In this document: piece after piece, positions 1 to 13,963 of the stretch | Position numbering within the stretch: position 1 is the stretch's first letter | Layout: the number at the start of each line of letters is the position of its first letter | Assembly (NCBI GenBank): GCA_964576795.1 | Contig: CAZNWT010000004.1 | Span: forward strand, 35,707-99,706 | Length of the DNA: 64,000 nt | Reading direction: 5' to 3' | Source of the DNA: an uncultured Victivallales bacterium | GTDB taxonomy: Bacteria; Verrucomicrobiota; Kiritimatiellia; UBA8416 | Position numbers and translations under genes: made by a program | The notes under the pieces: generated by a model | What the model was told of the DNA's origin: nothing | Databases searched by the model: none | Seen by the model: the letters and a program-made list of their open reading frames with translations, nothing else

Positions 1-584
1 AGCCCTGAAAACGTTTTGAGATACCCCTCTAAAAATACGTGGTTCTGCTGTGAACTTCCGACCTGCATCTGGTAGCGCGTTCTTCGCAGGGCGAGATACC
101 GGGTGCCGTCTGTTGGTTGCAGTTCTGGTTCTGAGGGCACAGCGCGTTCGTCGAAGAGGATCCGTATGCCCATCTCGTCACAGCCCTCCAGTTTTTGAAG
201 AAGGGTCTCGTACAGACTTTTTTTCTCCTCCAAAACGAGGTGGAGTGCCGACAGGCTCTCCAGAAAACAGCCGTAGCGCATAGGGATGACCGTCCGCATG
301 TGATGGAGCCCCTCGACGACTTTGCTGTATGCGAGAAGTTCGGAAACAGGTGGCGCGGTTTCCCCGGCGGCCAACTCCGACACGGCGGCGGCCAGTCCGT
401 GAGCGGTGACAAAGGATACGGTTTTCCCCATCATCCCTGTCATCTGCCCGACACTGACTGCCGGGGCTTTCATGAGGCAATAGACCAAGTAGGACATAGA
501 CTTATCCTTGCGTGTCCAAGACCGGGCTGAAATGGTAGGGTGGCCAAGGGCCGGAAGCTTCGAACGACAGGCCACTGGCTTCAT
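1..584 (-). CDS. GvpL/GvpF-family protein, second paralogue; C-terminus cut by window edge. Not in the supplied ORF track because the reading frame has no stop inside the window.
   Basis: I translated the minus strand myself. The frame is open from the TAA at 590..588 down to position 1. It reads ...WSICLMKAPAVSVGQMTGMMGKTVSFVTAHGLAAAVSEL...LLAYSKVVEGLHHMRTVIPMRYGCFLESLSALHLVLEEKKSLYETLLQKLEGCDEMGIRILFDER... This follows the same motif order as the upstream GvpF paralogue and the PF06386 consensus: YVYG-like strand, DLAAVVSEV, HHxVLE...VLPlRFGTVF, EWGVKVY. Start is ambiguous: ATG at 584 overlaps the upstream gene by 83 nt, ATG at 473 would start mid-motif. Confidence 0.6.
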   Translation of the reverse strand, partial: MKPVACRSKLPALGHPTISARSWTRKDKSMSYLVYCLMKAPAVSVGQMTGMMGKTVSFVTAHGLAAAVSELAAGETAPPVSELLAYSKVVEGLHHMRTVIPMRYGCFLESLSALHLVLEEKKSLYETLLQKLEGCDEMGIRILFDERAVPSEPELQPTDGTRYLALRRTRYQMQVGSSQQNHVFLEGYLKTFSG

Positions 585-1302
585 GCTTTACGTTCCACTC
601 GGCCGTCAGGCGTTGTAACCGCTCGACGGAACGGTCGGGAACGAGAAGTGCGGCATGGAAGAACATCTCGTCGCCTCTCCCCGTTAGATCCGGCGCCAGA
701 AGGCGACTGTCACTGAACGACGAGGTTACCTCCATGACCGACCTCGTCAGCTCTTCTGCTAAACCCTTGAGCCAGGTCTTCATCTCACGGTCCGCAGCCA
801 CTTTGAGTTTCTGTTCCTGGAAATAGCGCAGGCCTGGTGAAAGCCCTTCAAGCTGCTCATTTTCTGCCTCTAATCGTGTCGCTAAAATTTGTGCCCTGGC
901 TTTCGGCAGATCCGCATAGGCTTTAAGTGTCCATTCCTTCTGTCCCGCCGTTTCACTAAAAAACCGCGACAGAACCTTACGGTGCCGTTCCAGTGACGCC
1001 GCTAAAACCTCCAAGGAGGAAAAAACAGACCCGAAACGAACGGGCAACACGGGGGCCTGGCGCATGACCGACAGGATGACCTCTTCGTGACGCAGCGCCC
1101 GGGGTGCCACCCATGCGAGATCCGCCAACCGCTCGCGGGCCTCCAGCCCGCAAAAGTCCTCCAGTGAGACCTCAGAATAAAGTGCGACGGCATCGGCGCT
1201 GGTCTGGAGACAAAGGGGATACGCCACATCAATCCCCATTCCTTCTATTTTCAGAAGCGAGTTTTTCGGGGTCAGGCAGAAAAGATAGATCCCCAAGCTC
1301 AT
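502..1302 (-). CDS. GvpL/GvpF-family protein (gas-vesicle accessory protein family)
   Basis: 266 aa. N-terminus LGIYLFCL (YLYGI-like), ADAVALYSEV, WVAPRALRHEEVILSVMRQAPVLPVRFGSVF, EWTLKAYAD, and C-terminal GPWPPYHF, all characteristic of PF06386. Its ATG overlaps the stop of the upstream AAA gene (ATGA at 1299-1302). Confidence 0.8.
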   Translation of the reverse strand: MSLGIYLFCLTPKNSLLKIEGMGIDVAYPLCLQTSADAVALYSEVSLEDFCGLEARERLADLAWVAPRALRHEEVILSVMRQAPVLPVRFGSVFSSLEVLAASLERHRKVLSRFFSETAGQKEWTLKAYADLPKARAQILATRLEAENEQLEGLSPGLRYFQEQKLKVAADREMKTWLKGLAEELTRSVMEVTSSFSDSRLLAPDLTGRGDEMFFHAALLVPDRSVERLQRLTAEWNVKHEASGLSFEASGPWPPYHFSPVLDTQG

Positions 1303-3437
1303 CCCGGTCCTCTGTGTGCTTCGTTCAAGGCCTCTTCAATGTCCTGGCTCTGGATCAGGATTTCCGGTTCGCCTTCCGTATCCGTTCCGATGCTCTTTAC
1401 GGCCCCGCGCACCGCCGTCATGGCGGCTCTTCGCGCGACGCCAGCGATATCGGCCCCGCTGAAGCCCTCTGTTTTAGCGGCCAGCTCTGCAAAACAGATT
1501 CCTTTTGCCAGGGGTTTCTGCCGGAGATGGACGGCGAAGATCGCTTCCCGATCCTGCTCTCCGGGTTGGGTCATCTCGACAATGTCGTCGAACCGGCCCG
1601 GCCTGAGAACGGCGGTATCCAACATGTCTAGGCGGTTGGTGGCCCCCAAAACGAGAACGCCACGGAGCTCGTCGAGTCCGTCAAACTCCGCCAGAAACTG
1701 GCTCAGGAGCCGTTCGGAGACGTGCGAGTCCGAGGTTCCCGAACTGCGGGTCGCCACCAAAGCGTCGATCTCGTCAAAAAAGATAATGCACGGTGCCGCT
1801 TGCCTGGCTTTATGGAAAATCTCTCGGATACCCTTTTCTGATTCACCCACCCATTTTGACATCAGGGCGGGCCCTTTGACGGAGATGAAGTTGACCTGAC
1901 TCTCCGTGGCAATTGCCTTGGCGAGCATCGTTTTGCCGCAGCCCGGCGGGCCGACCAGCAGGATGCCCTTAGGTGGGGTCACGCCTCCCTTTTCGAAGAA
2001 GTGGGGATACTTCAGCGGCCATTCCACGGCCTCGACGAGGCGCTGTTTCAGCGAGGCGAGTCCGCCCACATCGTCCCAGTGGATATTGGGGGATTCTACG
2101 AAGACCTCGCGGATGGCGGACGGTTCGATCTCCCGCAGGGCAGTCAGGAAGTCGTCCATGCGCACGCTGAGTTTCGCTAACGTTTCGTAAGGGATCTCCG
2201 CCTTAGCGAAATCGATTTCCCCCATGATCTGACGGAGGCAGATCATGGCCGCCTCCCGGCAGAGCGCCTCGAGATCCGCGCCCACGAAACCGTGGGTGAT
2301 CGCAGCCAGATGCCCCATCTGGACGTCTTCGGCCAGAGGCATGCCCCGGCTATGAATCTCCAGAATCTCCAGCCGGCCCAGCCGGTCCGGAATTGGAATG
2401 ACGATCTCCCGGTCAAACCGGCCCGGTCGGCGTAGCGCTGGATCCAAGGCGTTGGGGATGTTGGTGGCGGCGATGACGATGACGTTCTGTCGCTTGTTTA
2501 GTCCGTCCATGAGGGCGAGAAGCTGGGCGACGACCCGCTTCTCCACATCGCCGACCACATTATCCCGCCGGGGGGCAATGGCGTCGATTTCGTCGATAAA
2601 GAGGATGCTGGGCCCTTTCTTGGTCGCCTCTTCAAAGATCTTCCTCAGGTGGGCTTCGCTCTCGCCGTAAAACTTGTGGATGATTTCCGGGCCGCTGATG
2701 GAAAAGAAGCTGGACTCGGTTTCATGGGCGATGGCGCGGGCGATCAGGGTCTTCCCGCATCCCGGCGGCCCATAAAGGAGAACCCCTTTGGGCGCTTCGA
2801 TCCCGAGCCGCTGGAAGACCTCGGGATAGCGCAGGGGCAGTTCGATCATCTCCCGGATGCGCTGGAGCTGGGATTTCAATCCGCCGATGTCTTCGTAGGA
2901 AAGGGTTCTGCCGCTGTCCTCCTCCTGACTCTTGCCAATCGCCAGCATGGTGCCTGGATGGATCAGTACCGGCCCCTTGGGGGTCACGGAGTCGACTTTG
3001 AAATAGGCGGACCGACTTCCGAACAGGGAGGCTTGAATCTTGGCACCCTCCAGGACCGGCAGGCCGTCCAGCAGGCTCCCGATGTACTTAAGATCCCGAT
3101 CCGCTGGCACAACGTTGAGCGGCGACAGGGTAACCCGATCCGCCGGACGGCATGCAATCTTGCGGATGCTCACCGGTTCGTCGAGATTTGCACCCGCATT
3201 TTCGCGGGTTGAACCGTCGAGCTGGACACGCGACTGGCCGCGTAGGTCAGCGTAGGCGGGCATGACCTTACAGACCGCCTTCCGCTTGCCCTCGACCTCC
3301 ACTAGGTCACCGACAGCGAGCTGAAGCTGCTTCAAGTCTTCTGGCCCCATCCGGGCAAAAGCCCGACCGACGTCTTTGGTCAAGGCTTCTGTTACTCTCA
3401 ACCTGACGACCGTTTCGCCCTTATCTTTCGCGGCCAT
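1299..3437 (-). CDS. Cdc48/VCP-like two-ring AAA+ ATPase (N-domain + D1 + D2)
   Basis: 712 aa. N-terminal Cdc48-N-like domain (VVRLRVTEA...DVGRAFARMGPEDL). Two AAA modules, each with Walker A GPPGCGKT, Walker B DEID and second region of homology. The stop overlaps the gvpF start. Confidence 0.9.
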   Translation of the reverse strand: MAAKDKGETVVRLRVTEALTKDVGRAFARMGPEDLKQLQLAVGDLVEVEGKRKAVCKVMPAYADLRGQSRVQLDGSTRENAGANLDEPVSIRKIACRPADRVTLSPLNVVPADRDLKYIGSLLDGLPVLEGAKIQASLFGSRSAYFKVDSVTPKGPVLIHPGTMLAIGKSQEEDSGRTLSYEDIGGLKSQLQRIREMIELPLRYPEVFQRLGIEAPKGVLLYGPPGCGKTLIARAIAHETESSFFSISGPEIIHKFYGESEAHLRKIFEEATKKGPSILFIDEIDAIAPRRDNVVGDVEKRVVAQLLALMDGLNKRQNVIVIAATNIPNALDPALRRPGRFDREIVIPIPDRLGRLEILEIHSRGMPLAEDVQMGHLAAITHGFVGADLEALCREAAMICLRQIMGEIDFAKAEIPYETLAKLSVRMDDFLTALREIEPSAIREVFVESPNIHWDDVGGLASLKQRLVEAVEWPLKYPHFFEKGGVTPPKGILLVGPPGCGKTMLAKAIATESQVNFISVKGPALMSKWVGESEKGIREIFHKARQAAPCIIFFDEIDALVATRSSGTSDSHVSERLLSQFLAEFDGLDELRGVLVLGATNRLDMLDTAVLRPGRFDDIVEMTQPGEQDREAIFAVHLRQKPLAKGICFAELAAKTEGFSGADIAGVARRAAMTAVRGAVKSIGTDTEGEPEILIQSQDIEEALNEAHRGPG

Positions 3438-3440
3438 GCG

Positions 3441-4139
3441 TCACCCAGCCTTTCCGCAACGAATCGTCACGATGCCATTGTTACAGGTCACCTGGAGTCG
3501 TTCTTTGGAAAGAAGATGCCCCAGAAGCATTTCCTTCCGGTACTTCTTCTCGCCCTTTTTAGCGGAGATTGTCAGCACGTCATCCTGGACCTCGATCTGG
3601 ATGTCATCGGGGCCAACACCTGGCATTTCCGCCACAAGGGTGGTGGCGTCTGCCTCCTCGAATACGTCGACCAAGGGTTCGCTGATCTCCTGCACCACCA
3701 CCTCGCCGGTGGCCTTGTCCTTGCGGACGTTGCCAAAAGGTTCGACCCGAATATCGTCGCCCTTATCTCCCAGCCCCGTTTTTATGGTGAAGCCATAGAC
3801 CGCTTTGCCTCCGCCGTCTTTCGAGGAGAAGTTGAAATTCCCATTCTCCGACACGGTTCCGCCCTTTTCCGAAACCTCTTCGAGTTTCCTGGCAAGGTCG
3901 GCCAGACCGTTCAGTATCCCCCCGGCGCTCTTTTCACCCGTCGTCTTTTTGTCGGCCGAGCCTGCGGTCTCCTCCGTTCCGCTGGCGGAAGACTCCGTTT
4001 TGCGATGCGACAACCGCTCCGCCGCCTCGGTCAGTTTTCCCAAGGAACCCAGCAACCCCGTCAGGCCGCCGAGTAGCGCGCCGCCGCAGTCCACCTGCGC
4101 TTCATCCTTTTTGTCAGATGTAGTCTTGCTATTCTTCAT
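3441..4139 (-). CDS. Hsp20/alpha-crystallin family small heat-shock protein with long disordered N-terminal region (GvpH-like)
   Basis: 232 aa. C-terminal ACD (PLVDVFEEADATTLVAEMPGVGPDDIQIEVQDDVLTISAKK...IVTIRCGK). Strong RBS AAAGGAGAG 5 nt upstream. 3 nt from the AAA gene start. Confidence 0.85.
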   Translation of the reverse strand: MKNSKTTSDKKDEAQVDCGGALLGGLTGLLGSLGKLTEAAERLSHRKTESSASGTEETAGSADKKTTGEKSAGGILNGLADLARKLEEVSEKGGTVSENGNFNFSSKDGGGKAVYGFTIKTGLGDKGDDIRVEPFGNVRKDKATGEVVVQEISEPLVDVFEEADATTLVAEMPGVGPDDIQIEVQDDVLTISAKKGEKKYRKEMLLGHLLSKERLQVTCNNGIVTIRCGKAG

Positions 4140-5566
4140 CGTTCTCTCCTTTGGGCTTGGATGCCCAGTTTTTTTGTTTTGTTGTGCATGGTCTTGTAAT
4201 CGATTTGCAACAGTCTTGCCGCCTTGGCCTTGTTTCCGCCGGTGTATTGCAGAACGCCGGTAATCACAGTCCGTTCCACCTCGGCCACGCTCCGCGTCAC
4301 AACGTCCCGAAGCGACGCGCTCTTCCAGGGAGCCCCGTCTTCTGGCGGCACCACAGAGGCCGCGAAAGACACTTCAGCAGCGAGGCCAAGCTCCTTTTCG
4401 GTGATGGCACTCGTGCCCTGGACCAGCACCGCAGCCCGCCGGATCACCGACCGGAGTTCACGGACATTCCCCGGCCAACGGTAAGCGATCAGAGCTTCAA
4501 TCGCCGCATCCGAAAGTACAAGTCCGTTCTTGCCCAGTTCGACTGCGGTTACGTCCAGAAACCGTTTCGCCAGAAAAAGGACATCCTCTTTCCGATCCCG
4601 GAGCGCAGGGATCTGAATGGCAAAGTCGCACAAGCGATAATACAGATCCTCGCGGAAAGTGCCCGCGATGACCATTTCGCGCAGAGCCATGTTGGTGGCG
4701 GCGATCAGCCGGAAATCCACTTCGATGGGCTTCGTTCCGCCGACCCGGTTCACCACCTTGTTTTGGATCGCCCGCAGCAGTTTCGCCTGGGAACTGTAGG
4801 GCAGATTGGCGATCTCATCCAAAAACAGGGAACCGCCGTGAGCCACCTCGAACTTACCCGTTTTCTGCCGGTCCGCGCCGGTAAACGAGCCTTTCTCGTG
4901 TCCGAACAGTTCGCTTTCCAGCAGCGCCTCGGGGATGGCTCCGCAATCGACTATAACAAAGGGCGCGCGGCCCCTCGCGCTGTTCCGGTGAATGGCCTCG
5001 GCCACCAGATCCTTGCCCGCGCCCGTTTCGCCCATGATAAGCACGGAAAAGTCAGTTTGCGACACACGCTGGACATCCGCCGTGATCCGGGCAATGGCCT
5101 CCGAGTGCCCCATGCTCTCGAAAAGAGTCAGATACTCCTGTGCAATCTCCGTCGATTTCCTCAAGGGTTTCTTCAGTTTCGTTTCCGACAAGGCCCGCAG
5201 GGTGATCTTGGCGACTTCTTGGTTGTCGAAGGGCTTTGCAATGTAATCGTAGGCTCCGTCCCGCATGGTTTCGACGGCCTGACGAATGTCCGCATAAGCC
5301 GTAATGAGGATGACGGGCAGGCTGGCATCAGTTTCCCTGATCTTCTTAAGGACTTCGACGCCATTCATGCCTGGCATGCGGACATCGAGAAGAACGACCG
5401 ACGGCGCGGCAGCGGGAGAGCGGAGCTTCTCCAACGCCTGACAACCGTCGGCGGCGGTAGTGACCTTTATCCCCACCTTTTCCAGAATATGCCTCAGATT
5501 GTCACGAGAATCCTCCTCGTCATCGACAATCAGTGCGCAGAAGCGGTTTTCGTCAATTGTTTTCAT
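4136..5566 (-). CDS. NtrC-family sigma-54-dependent response regulator (REC + sigma-54 AAA+ + Fis-type HTH)
   Basis: 476 aa. Receiver domain (LLDVRMPGMNG), Walker A GETGAGKD, GSFTGA (GAFTGA variant), C-terminal HTH. The stop overlaps the hsp20 start (ATGA). Confidence 0.9.
   Translation of the reverse strand: MKTIDENRFCALIVDDEEDSRDNLRHILEKVGIKVTTAADGCQALEKLRSPAAAPSVVLLDVRMPGMNGVEVLKKIRETDASLPVILITAYADIRQAVETMRDGAYDYIAKPFDNQEVAKITLRALSETKLKKPLRKSTEIAQEYLTLFESMGHSEAIARITADVQRVSQTDFSVLIMGETGAGKDLVAEAIHRNSARGRAPFVIVDCGAIPEALLESELFGHEKGSFTGADRQKTGKFEVAHGGSLFLDEIANLPYSSQAKLLRAIQNKVVNRVGGTKPIEVDFRLIAATNMALREMVIAGTFREDLYYRLCDFAIQIPALRDRKEDVLFLAKRFLDVTAVELGKNGLVLSDAAIEALIAYRWPGNVRELRSVIRRAAVLVQGTSAITEKELGLAAEVSFAASVVPPEDGAPWKSASLRDVVTRSVAEVERTVITGVLQYTGGNKAKAARLLQIDYKTMHNKTKKLGIQAQRRER
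4195..4225 (-). promoter_or_regulatory. candidate sigma-54 (-24/-12) promoter for hsp20-cdc48-gvpF-gvpF, embedded in the 3' end of the activator gene
   Basis: Minus-strand sequence cGGCAaG-actg-TTGCAaa (plus 4220..4206) versus consensus TGGCACG-N4-TTGCW. Invariant GG and GC are separated by exactly 10 nt. About 65 nt upstream of the hsp20 ATG. rpoN and a sigma-54 activator are both in the window. Confidence 0.5.
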
Positions 5567-6047
5567 AGTGTATTGGTTTGCCAGTTCAGTTCGAGAACCA
5601 ATGCCTTAAGAATATTTAGTACCTCGTAGGCAAATACGCCAAACACAATCGTAGGCGGATGGGTCGAACTGTTTTCGGCCTTGTCTGACTCTCGTTTCAT
5701 ACGCAACTCCTGACATGGTTGTATTACCATGCGAGTTTCCGCGCAAGCAGATTAATTTACAGTCTTATGAGAAGGCATGTCAAATTCAATAATCCGGCAC
5801 GGCGGATACGGGGCGCATTTCATCTCTGCGGGGATTCCGGCCTTCTTTCTGTCGTGAGGAAAGAGCCAATGCCAGCGAGAAGGATCTACCCCTTTATTGC
5901 GAAGCTCCTCGGTTTCTCCCCACCAGTAATTCTGAATCGCAATCGGGGCAGCGCATCTGCTGTTGATCCGAAACCAATTGCGCGCCATACCTGAGAATCG
6001 GGCGCGCCAGCTCTTTAGCGCTCTCCTCGTTATCCGTTCTCGTCGCC

Positions 6048-12712: not shown

Positions 12713-13963
12713 ATGAACAAAAAGACAATTAGAGATATCAATTTCGACGGTAAGCGCGTCCTCATGCGTGTGGATTTCAATGTTCCGCTGGATGGTGCAA
12801 CCGTAAGTGATGATACCCGGATTCGCACGGCTATTCCCTCTATTCAGTATATTTTGGATCAGGGAGGCTCTCTGGTGTTGATGAGCCATCTCGGTCGGCC
12901 CAAGGGTAAGGTTAACCCAGAGTTTAGCCTGAAGCCCGCTGCTGACAAACTCGCCGAGTTGATGCAGCGTGAGGTGAAATTTGCCCCTGATTGTGTGGGG
13001 GATGAGGTGAGCACAATGGCAAAAAGTCTTGAGCGTGGCGGCATTCTGGTGCTCGAGAATCTGCGTTTCCATCCCGAAGAAGAGGGGAAACCCGACTTGG
13101 CTGACGATGCCAGCGATGCGGATAAAGCTGCTGCAAAAGCAGAAATGAAAGTGAAGCAGGAAGCCTTTGCGGCACAGCTTGCCGAACTTGGCGATGTCTA
13201 TGTCAGTGATGCCTTTGGTACGGCCCACCGCGCCCATGCCTCTATGGCGGTTGTGACAAAGCATTTTGAGGAGTGTGCGGCTGGATTTTTGCTGGAAAAG
13301 GAAATCACCTATTTAGGGAATGCGGTTGCTAATCCCGAGCGTCCGTTTGTCGCGATTCTTGGCGGGGCCAAGATCAGCGGCAAGATTGACGTGCTTATGA
13401 ATCTTATGGATAAGGTCGATACGATTATTGTCGGGGGCGGCATGGTCTTCACGTTTTACAAGGCGATGGGGCTTCCCATTGGAAATTCTCTGGTTGAAGA
13501 GGATCGAGTTGCATTGGCCAAAGCAACGTTGGATCAGGTTAAGCTCAAGGGCGTTAACTTCCTGCTTCCGGTTGACCATGTGATTGCAGATGCATTCAGT
13601 GCCGATGCCAAGACGCGTATTGTTGACGAAGATGGTATTGCGGATGGGTGGATGGCGCTGGACATTGGTCCAAAAACCATTGCACTATTCTCTGATGCGG
13701 TTTCCCATGCCAAGACCGTGGTTTGGAATGGCCCGATGGGTTGTTTTGAAATGGCGCCGTTTGCTGAGGGCACCATGGCTTTAGCTAAGGCCATTGCTGA
13801 TACGGATTGCACCAGTATTATTGGCGGTGGTGATAGCGTGAGTGCGGTCAACAAGAGTGGCTTAGCTGACAAGATGACGCATATCAGCACGGGGGGGGGT
13901 GCCAGCCTTGAGTTTCTTGAGGGTAAGGCTCTCCCGGGCATTATGGCTCTAAGCGATAAATAA
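12713..13963 (+). CDS. pgk: phosphoglycerate kinase
   Basis: 416 aa. Conserved PGK N- and C-domain motifs (RVDFNVP, GGGASLE). Confidence 0.95.

What the first reader, a model, noticed from the sequence alone, without database searches (positions are those of the whole stretch)
1..584. Unannotated second GvpF/L paralogue overlapping the first by up to 83 nt
The six-frame track reports only spurious R/C/W-rich ORFs at 29..480. The real coding frame (third minus frame) is open from 590 to the window edge and encodes a clean GvpF/L-like sequence. Motif spacing (WSICLM...11 aa...TGMMGKTV) indicates the protein starts upstream of Met-473. The likely start is ATG-584, which lies inside the conserved GPWPPYHF-encoding C-terminal codons of the upstream gvpF in another frame.
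Basis: seen in the sequence. Interest (0 to 1): 0.55.

Follow-up and report, generated by a model that had tools for sequence, protein, structure and literature searches.

The report
Ordinary gvpF3-like gene, start misplaced

Summary
The minus-strand frame is open from the stop at 590..588 to base 1 and encodes a GvpL/GvpF-family protein (Pfam 86 bits). The ORF lister skipped it only because it runs off the window edge.

The proposed start (ATG-584, 83-nt overlap) is wrong.

- That Met is invariant in 37 homologues, which all begin M-x-Y-L-x-Y.
- The Pfam profile begins there.
- An AlphaFold model puts strand beta-1 at residues 2-9.
- The public gene call on the parent contig (238 aa) starts there.
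- In 72 related loci, 38 have no in-frame start codon upstream. The closest relatives put both genes in one frame, so the upstream stop closes the extension.

Codon usage over the 29 disputed codons is uninformative.

[quoted passage not shown] This is ordinary and already known; interest is low.

The parts
1..497 (-). First 165 codons of the second GvpF/L gene (gvpF3 position). It is cut by the window edge. The full gene is 238 aa (P0001) at L001 10806..11522, where L001 position = 11303 minus window position.
   Evidence: Translation. Pfam PF06386 86.3 bits. Identical public gene call. GvpF fold, TM 0.74-0.75 to 6L5D/4QSG.
495..497 (-). True start codon ATG of the second paralogue.
   Evidence: Met invariant in 37 homologues. 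Pfam profile position 1 falls here. Beta-1 is residues 2-9 in the model. The start is conserved in 72 related loci.
505..509 (-). Shine-Dalgarno AAGGA, 7 nt upstream of ATG-497. It lies inside the last codons (Gln-Gly) of the upstream gene.
   Evidence: Anti-SD duplex -5.2 kcal/mol, against -3.3 for ATG-584 and -2.2 for ATG-473. The equivalent AGGGA/AAGGA is conserved in the closest relatives.
498..501 (-). 4-nt spacer (GTCT) between the stop of gvpF2-like and the start of gvpF3-like.
   Evidence: Sequence. Relatives have a 4-nt overlap (47 of 60) or 2-25-nt gaps (12 of 60) at this junction.
502..1302 (-). Upstream GvpF/L paralogue (gvpF2 position), 266 aa, stop TAA 504..502. Its ATG overlaps the stop of the AAA gene (ATGA).
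   Evidence: ORF. Pfam PF06386 155 bits, full-length.
582..584 (-). It is an out-of-frame by-product of the His-Glu codons CAT GAA of the upstream gene.
   Evidence: L003 has the synonymous CAC there, so no ATG. No homologue covers the 29-aa extension.
1299..3437 (-). CDC48-family double AAA+ ATPase, 712 aa, at the gvpZ position of the operon.
   Evidence: TIGR01243 CDC48 877.9 bits against a cut-off of 802.65. Pfam CDC48_N plus two AAA domains.
3441..4139 (-). Hsp20 / alpha-crystallin protein, 232 aa, at the gvpH position.
   Evidence: Pfam HSP20 27.6 bits. NCBIfam Hsp20 114.9 bits, below its cut-off of 140.
4136..5566 (-). NtrC-type sigma-54-dependent response regulator, 476 aa, at the gvrA position. 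It is the first gene of the operon.
   Evidence: Response_reg + Sigma54_activat + HTH_8. NtrC/AtoC models at E about 1e-122 to 1e-126, below their equivalog cut-offs.

Best explanation
Window 1..497 (minus strand) is the 5' two-thirds of an ordinary GvpF/L-family gas-vesicle accessory gene. It is the second of a tandem pair and occupies the gvpF3 position of a Serratia-type regulatory/accessory operon: sigma-54 regulator, Hsp20, CDC48-type ATPase, gvpF, gvpF, PAS histidine kinase, response regulator.

Translation starts at ATG 497..495, 4 nt after the upstream gene's TAA. It uses an AAGGA Shine-Dalgarno embedded in the last codons of that gene, so the two are probably translationally coupled (inferred).

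The protein has the two-domain GvpF fold, and its first strand follows Met-1 directly (shown by model and profile). By analogy with characterised GvpF/GvpL proteins, it most likely acts as a low-abundance assembly factor that binds small GvpA-family shell proteins while the vesicle wall is nucleated and grown. This function is inferred and was not tested.

The open frame from 587 to 498 is a chance stop-free stretch in the +1 frame of the conserved C-terminal coding sequence of the upstream gene.
For: - Start position in homologues: Met at ATG-497 is invariant in 37 homologues, nearly all of which begin M-x-Y-L-x-Y. All of them cover exactly the 165 residues from that Met (85% of the 194-aa query) and none covers the 29-aa extension.
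- Profile: Pfam positions 4-167 align to residues 34-176 of the 584-start translation, so profile position 1 falls right after Met-30, which is ATG-497. In the upstream paralogue, profile position 1 is residue 4.
- Solved structures: a profile-to-PDB alignment puts Y6 on the first strand of GvpF 6L5D and 4QSG.
- Model: AlphaFold on full-length P0001 gives pLDDT 83 and pTM 0.77, with beta-1 at residues 2-9 and pLDDT 90 for the first ten residues. Foldseek top hits are GvpF 6L5D and 4QSG at E about 1e-11 to 1e-12, TM 0.74-0.75.
- Public gene call: on the 106.8-kb parent contig the gene is called as 238 aa starting at the ATG-497 equivalent.
- Related loci: of 72, 60 have a gvpF ending in GP[WLF]PP[YF] directly upstream. 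The gap is -4 in 47, +2 to +25 in 12, and 79 in 1. In 38 of 72 there is no in-frame ATG/GTG/TTG upstream of the conserved start, and in 59 of 72 no in-frame ATG.
- Closest relatives: L083 (61% identity) and L003 (56%) have a 6-nt gap, so both genes share a frame and the upstream stop closes the extension.
- Ribosome binding: the SD duplex is strongest for ATG-497.
Against: - In this one sequence the frame really is open for 90 nt upstream of ATG-497 and holds an ATG (584) and a GTG (575).
- Codon usage cannot exclude use of that frame: +0.04 bits/codon for the extension frame against +0.03 for the upstream gene's own last 30 codons.
- Start positions in homologues are themselves gene-caller output, not experimental N-termini.
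- The function of GvpF3-type proteins is not established even in Serratia (PMC4982088).
- Orthology to Serratia GvpF3 rests on gene order only.
Confidence: 0.93

Rival explanations
1. One reading: translation starts at ATG-584. This gives a 267-aa protein with a 29-aa N-terminal extension (MKPVACRSKLPALGHPTISARSWTRKDKS) encoded in the +1 frame of the last 83 nt of the upstream gvpF (dual coding).
For: The frame is open from 587 and ATG-584 is in frame. The codon-usage score of the extension frame (+0.04 bits/codon) is no worse than the upstream gene's own frame there (+0.03). Only about 8% of stop-free +1-frame windows in this genome's genes score that high.
Against: - No homologue carries the extension.
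- 38 of 72 related loci have no upstream in-frame start, and only 12 of 72 could have an extension of 20 or more codons at all.
- The relative frame of the two genes varies between relatives (-4, +2, +3, +6, +10, +11 ...), so no overlapping ORF is conserved.
- In the closest relatives the upstream stop is in frame.
- The ATG is a by-product of the conserved His-Glu codons, and L003 has CAC there.
- The SD is weaker, -3.3 against -5.2 kcal/mol.
- About one third of 30-codon +1-frame windows in this genome are stop-free by chance.
- The extension is rich in Arg, Ser, Lys and Pro and would sit in front of a beta-1 strand that begins at residue 2 in the family.
Confidence: 0.03
2. Translation starts further downstream, at ATG-473 or TTG-488, giving a protein that lacks most of the first strand.
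For: Both are in-frame start codons. The 'M' of the conserved C-[IL]-M is present in several close homologues.
Against: Residues 2-9 (SYLVYCLM) are conserved across the family (L33, Y35 and K39 of the 584-start numbering are invariant or nearly so) and form beta-1 at pLDDT about 90. The Pfam profile and the PDB GvpF alignments include them. The SD for ATG-473 is the weakest, -2.2 kcal/mol. Most homologues have I, V or K rather than M at the 473-equivalent position, so it is not a conserved start.
Confidence: 0.03
3. The stretch is a pseudogene or decaying duplicate of the upstream gvpF and is not expressed.
For: One related MAG (L005) has reduced the neighbouring gvpF2 to a 25-codon remnant, so the pair can decay.
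Against: The ORF is intact for the full 238 aa on the parent contig. Family residues are well conserved and the model is confident. In-frame codon usage is positive, +0.17 bits/codon over 165 codons against -0.49 and -0.21 off frame. The two paralogues are only 22% identical, so the duplication is ancient and maintained.
Confidence: 0.01

Closest known systems
GvpF3 (with GvpF2) of the Serratia sp. [quoted passage not shown] 2016, PMC4982088)
   Same: The order of domain types is the same: NtrC-type sigma-54 regulator, Hsp20, one large gene, two tandem GvpF/L genes, sensor kinase, response regulator. A gvpA-led structural operon containing a third gvpF follows. [quoted passage not shown]
   Different: Sequence orthology to the Serratia proteins was not tested, because no Serratia sequence was available here. 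I could not verify that Serratia GvpZ is a CDC48-type ATPase. On the parent contig the regulatory operon lies upstream of the gvpA operon. The paper notes that inverted order for Psychromonas and Desulfomonile, not for Serratia. The closest genome relatives are MAGs labelled Treponemataceae, Rectinemataceae, Syntrophaceae and similar.
Cyanobacterial GvpF with solved structures (Microcystis 4QSG, Anabaena 6L5D)
   Same: Same two-domain alpha+beta fold (TM 0.74-0.75). The first strand follows the initiator Met closely. The Pro-Met-Arg-Tyr-Gly core (PLRFG in the crystal sequences) is shared.
   Different: Only 16-18% identity. It scores far below the NCBIfam cyanobacterial GvpF equivalog cut-off, 28.5 against 350 bits. 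The third GvpF on the parent contig (L001 16678..17436) is the closer counterpart at 89.6 bits.
Haloarchaeal GvpL / GvpF accessory proteins
   Same: Same Pfam family. They are paired paralogues within one gvp cluster. They are reported to bind small GvpA-family accessory proteins such as GvpM (PMC6107691), which is the basis for the inferred mechanism here.
   Different: It falls below the GvpL equivalog cut-off, 37.7 against 200 bits. The operon context is bacterial, with a two-component / sigma-54 control system instead of GvpD/GvpE.

Membership tests
GvpL/GvpF family (Pfam PF06386) | Sequence match to the family profile above the curated cut-off | tested here: met
   86.3 bits against 23.6 for the window fragment. 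Profile positions 4-167 of 245 are covered, and the rest lies beyond the window edge. Full-length P0001 carries PF06386.
GvpL/GvpF family (Pfam PF06386) | Two-domain alpha+beta GvpF fold as in 4QSG / 6L5D | tested here: met
   AlphaFold model with pLDDT 83.2 and pTM 0.77. Foldseek to 6L5D_A gives E = 4e-12, TM 0.74, and to 4QSG E = 8e-12, TM 0.75. The next hits are 9 orders of magnitude weaker.
GvpL/GvpF family (Pfam PF06386) | Conserved C-terminal G-P-W-P-P-Y motif | tested here: met
   SGPWPPYNF in full-length P0001, nearly invariant in the alignment. It lies outside the window, on the parent contig.
GvpL/GvpF family (Pfam PF06386) | Encoded within a gas vesicle gene cluster (gvpA, gvpN, gvpG, gvpK, gvpJ) | tested here: met
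   Parent contig L001 has Gas_vesicle (three genes), GvpN (TIGR02640 329.7 bits against 266.8), GvpG, GvpK and a third GvpF within 10 kb downstream.
GvpL/GvpF family (Pfam PF06386) | Required for, or physically associated with, gas vesicles | not testable with these tools
   Needs genetics or proteomics. Known only for homologues (PMC4982088, PMC6107691).
Serratia-type GvpF3 (second of the gvpF2-gvpF3 tandem) | [quoted passage not shown] | tested here: met
   Domain order on window plus L001: Response_reg/Sigma54_activat/HTH_8, HSP20, CDC48-type AAA, GvpL_GvpF, GvpL_GvpF, PAS/HisKA/HATPase_c, Response_reg. This matches the operon as listed in PMC4982088. The equivalence of the AAA gene to gvpZ is by position only.
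Serratia-type GvpF3 (second of the gvpF2-gvpF3 tandem) | Closer in sequence to Serratia GvpF3 than to GvpF1 or GvpF2 | not tested
Within this contig the three paralogues are 22-23% identical to each other.
NCBIfam equivalogs GvpL (NF045778) and cyanobacterial GvpF (NF052351) | Score above the equivalog cut-off | tested here: not met
   37.7 against 200 bits and 28.5 against 350 bits. It is a member of the broad family but of neither curated equivalog.
   38 of 72 loci have no upstream in-frame start and 59 of 72 have no upstream ATG. The closest relatives have the upstream stop in frame.
   None of the 62 hits covers query residues 1-29. Coverage is 85%, which is residues 30-194.
   +0.04 against +0.03 bits/codon over about 30 codons. 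That is within the noise of 30-codon windows.

The most novel reading that the evidence does not exclude
In this lineage only, a minority of ribosomes also initiate at ATG-584. This would make an N-terminally extended GvpF3 isoform whose first 29 residues are read from the +1 frame of the upstream gvpF's conserved C-terminal codons. It would be a young, lineage-specific dual-coding stretch.
Probability: 0.03. Interest if true: 0.3.

Novelty: already known. Interest (0 to 1): 0.07.

Why it matters
It matters little. The case shows that a gene cut by the window edge is missed by an ORF lister, and that a misread motif led to a wrong start codon. The corrected picture is a standard, tightly packed gas-vesicle accessory operon with tandem gvpF paralogues, as described for Serratia and related clusters.

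The useful by-products are a clean start-codon assignment for this GvpF3-type subfamily and junction statistics: a 4-nt ATGA overlap in 47 of 60 loci. Those numbers argue for translational coupling of the two paralogues.

Tried and rejected
I trained on 31 long ORFs of the window. The 29-30 disputed codons score the same in both frames, so the test is uninformative. My first version gave -0.22 bits/codon for the upstream gene's frame, but that segment included its stop codon. I withdrew it.
- The per-position GC plot shows the expected low-GC2 pattern switching frames near 500, but it is too coarse to separate 584 from 497.
- Single-sequence search against PDB sequences aligned only the middle of the protein. 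A profile of homologues was needed to reach the N-terminus.
- Cluster look-up for a source name or organism returned no names, so the source organism of the window remains undetermined.
- Literature check on whether Serratia GvpZ is a CDC48-type ATPase found no statement either way ([failed on a term], 19, 34, 36, 37).
- Rfam (gathering thresholds) and tRNA scans of the whole window found nothing.
- A pseudogene reading was considered and rejected; see the rival explanations.

Full report
**What is in the sequence**

On the minus strand, a 266-aa ORF at 502..1302 ends ...SGPWPPYHFSPVLDTQG-TAA, with the stop at 504..502. It is a full-length GvpL_GvpF protein (Pfam PF06386, 155 bits).

A different minus-strand frame, with codon first bases at pos mod 3 = 2, has a stop at 590..588 and then stays open to base 1. 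Its in-frame ATGs are at 584, 497, 473, 443 and further down. Translated from 584 it reads MKPVACRSKLPALGHPTISARSWTRKDKS-MSYLVYCLMKAPAVSVGQMTGMMGKTVSF... This matches PF06386 at 86.3 bits, E = 4e-24.

The list omits it only because the ORF runs off the window edge. The listed ORFs at 29..412, 178..480, 50..283 and 195..530 are off-frame shadows.

- The quoted 'WSICLM' is not in the sequence. The peptide is MSYLVYCLM.
- ATG-497 lies 4 nt (GTCT) after the upstream TAA.
- ATG-584 is not inside the GPWPPYHF codons (552..529). It is formed out of frame by the Lys-His-Glu codons AAG CAT GAA at 588..580.

**Evidence for ATG-497 as the start**

1. Profile. Pfam positions 4-167 align to residues 34-176 of the 584-start translation. 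Profile position 1 therefore falls directly after Met-30, which is ATG-497. In the upstream paralogue, profile position 1 is residue 4.
2. Homologues. A search found 62 relatives. The best 46 cover 73-88% of the 194-aa query, most of them exactly 85%, which is the 165 residues from Met-30 onward. In an alignment of 37 of them that Met is invariant, and almost all begin M-[ASTP]-Y-L-[VLI]-Y-[CG]. Three carry a few extra residues, and none resembles the 29-aa extension.
3. Public gene call. The upstream protein led to a 106,852-bp ENA metagenome contig that contains this window's sequence. There the next gene is called at L001 10806..11522 (238 aa, P0001), which is exactly ATG-497. L001 position = 11303 minus window position, so the window lacks the last 73 codons. 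The protein is held by the NCBI, JGI, ENA and Logan collections, so it is not unannotated.
4. Structure. A profile-to-PDB search aligns Y6 of the family to the first strand of GvpF 6L5D and 4QSG. An AlphaFold model of P0001 built with 27 homologues has pLDDT 83.2 and pTM 0.77. Its beta-1 spans residues 2-9 (SYLVYCLM), with pLDDT 90 over the first ten residues. Foldseek returns GvpF 6L5D and 4QSG as the only strong hits, at TM 0.74-0.75. A start at Met-473 would delete beta-1. A start at 584 would put 29 unconserved residues in front of it.
5. Ribosome binding site. AAGGA at 509..505 sits 7 nt upstream of ATG-497. The anti-SD duplex is -5.2 kcal/mol, against -3.3 for ATG-584 and -2.2 for ATG-473. 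The closest relatives keep AGGGA/AAGGA at the same place, inside the last codons of the upstream gene.
6. Junctions in related genomes.
   - A scan of one genome per species returned 80 loci. 72 have a start codon at the conserved position.
   - 60 of those have a gvpF ending in GP[WLF]PP[YF] directly upstream.
   - The distance from its stop to the start is -4 (ATGA-type overlap) in 47, +2 to +25 in 12, and 79 in 1.
   - In 38 of 72 there is no in-frame ATG/GTG/TTG between the nearest upstream in-frame stop and the conserved start. In 59 of 72 there is no in-frame ATG. Only 12 of 72 could have an extension of 20 or more codons at all.
   - The closest relatives (L083 = P0002 at 61% identity, and L003 at 56%; L019 likewise) have a 6-nt gap. 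Both genes are then in the same frame and the upstream stop closes the extension.
   - L003 has CAC instead of CAT at the His codon, which removes the '584' ATG with no change to the upstream protein.
   - Because the relative frame of the two genes varies, no overlapping reading frame is conserved.

**The frame-plot test**

I trained a codon log-odds table on 31 long ORFs of the window. Over whole genes it separates the frames cleanly. The second paralogue scores +0.17 bits/codon in frame against -0.49 and -0.21 off frame.

Over the disputed stretch it does not. The extension frame (584..498) scores +0.04 and the upstream gene's own last 30 codons score +0.03. An earlier figure of -0.22 for the upstream frame was my error, because that segment included the stop codon.

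About a third of 30-codon +1-frame windows in this genome's genes are stop-free, and 8% of those score as high as this one. The open 90 nt is therefore unremarkable and the test is uninformative. The +1-frame peptides of relatives look alike (…PAPGRPTISPR…) because the GPWPPYHF codons force them to, and several contain stops.

**Context and likely function**

The window genes run, on the minus strand:

| Window coordinates | Product | Evidence |
|---|---|---|
| 4136..5566 | NtrC-type sigma-54 response regulator | |
| 3441..4139 | Hsp20 | |
| 1299..3437 | CDC48-family double AAA+ ATPase (TIGR01243 878 bits, above cut-off) | |
| 502..1302 | gvpF | |
| 1..497 | gvpF, cut by the window edge | |

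The junctions are ATGA overlaps or 3-4-nt gaps.

On the parent contig the following genes come next: a PAS histidine kinase, a single-domain response regulator, gvpA, gvpN (TIGR02640 above cut-off), a third gvpF, gvpG, an ArsA/GET3-type ATPase, gvpJ/S-like genes and gvpK.

[quoted passage not shown] They report three GvpF paralogues as conserved in gamma- and delta-proteobacterial clusters and describe the GvpF variants as essential. They also state that the precise role of these proteins is unknown (PMC4982088).

Haloarchaeal GvpF and GvpL bind the small GvpA-family protein GvpM (PMC6107691). Microcystis GvpF was reported on the gas-facing surface of vesicles (cited in PMC4982088).

My mechanistic reading is an inference from those homologues. 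The window gene would encode a low-abundance assembly factor that engages GvpA-family subunits during nucleation and growth of the vesicle wall. It would be made in fixed ratio with its tandem paralogue through translational coupling.

The three paralogues on the contig are only 22-23% identical to each other, so the duplication is ancient. Both window paralogues fall below the NCBIfam GvpL and cyanobacterial GvpF equivalog cut-offs. They therefore belong to the broad family but to neither curated subgroup.

**Verdict**

- The gene is an ordinary, already catalogued member of a known family in a known operon layout.
- Residual probability that ATG-584 is used at all: about 3%.

Noticed in passing
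L005 5917..5994 (Rectinemataceae MAG DATMZF010000035.1): Between the CDC48-type ATPase gene and the gvpF3-like gene, this relative has only a 25-codon ORF (MSAESSMEDSHGREARFAPVLDMQG*) where the roughly 266-aa gvpF2-like gene should be. The ORF keeps the gvpF2 C-terminal tail and the SD. This looks like an internal deletion of gvpF2, or an assembly artefact. It is of interest because gvpF2 is reported as essential in Serratia.
   Followed up: partly
L001 13588..13603 (parent contig, outside the window; about 119 nt upstream of gvpA at 13707): A sigma-54-type promoter match, TGGCATACATATTGCT (TGGCAY-N5-TTGCW), lies upstream of gvpA. It fits control by the NtrC-type regulator encoded at window 4136..5566, as shown for GvrA and gvpA1 in Serratia (PMC4982088). 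Two copies of a repeat of about 30 nt (…TCTTRTGGTAAGGTTGRGGCA…) lie between it and gvpA.
   Followed up: partly
L001 17829..19853 (parent contig, outside the window): A 674-aa tandem ArsA/GET3/TRC40-family ATPase (TIGR00345 408 bits, above cut-off) is embedded in the structural gvp operon between gvpG and a gvpA/J-like gene, and its end overlaps that gene. Its role is unexplored here. A tail-anchor or hydrophobic-protein-handling ATPase next to very hydrophobic shell proteins is suggestive.
   Followed up: no
window 1299..3437 (-): A full CDC48/p97-type double AAA+ ATPase with an N-domain (712 aa) sits in the gvp accessory operon, in addition to GvpN on the parent contig. It is conserved in the closest relative locus L083. 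I could not verify from the literature whether it corresponds to Serratia 'GvpZ'.
   Followed up: partly
window 1299..1302, 3437..3441, 4136..4139: The operon is tightly packed. There are ATGA start/stop overlaps between the regulator and Hsp20 genes and between the AAA and gvpF2-like genes, and a 3-nt gap between the Hsp20 and AAA genes. This is consistent with translational coupling along the whole operon.
   Followed up: partly
window 3441..4139 (-): The Hsp20-type protein has a roughly 150-aa N-terminal region rich in Gly, Ser, Lys and Glu, with no family match, ahead of the alpha-crystallin domain. The Pfam match covers residues 160-204 only.
   Followed up: no
window 5563..5700 (-): A 45-aa ORF called in public data lies immediately upstream of the sigma-54 regulator gene and overlaps its start. 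It has no family hit and may be spurious or a leader peptide.
   Followed up: no
locus list: The best genome matches to this GvpF3-type protein come from MAGs labelled Treponemataceae and Rectinemataceae (Spirochaetota) and Victivallales. Syntrophaceae, Desulfobacterota, Acidobacteriota and Binatia also appear. Serratia-type gvp clusters therefore seem to be spread widely among uncultured anaerobes. The taxonomy of the window itself was not determined.
   Followed up: no
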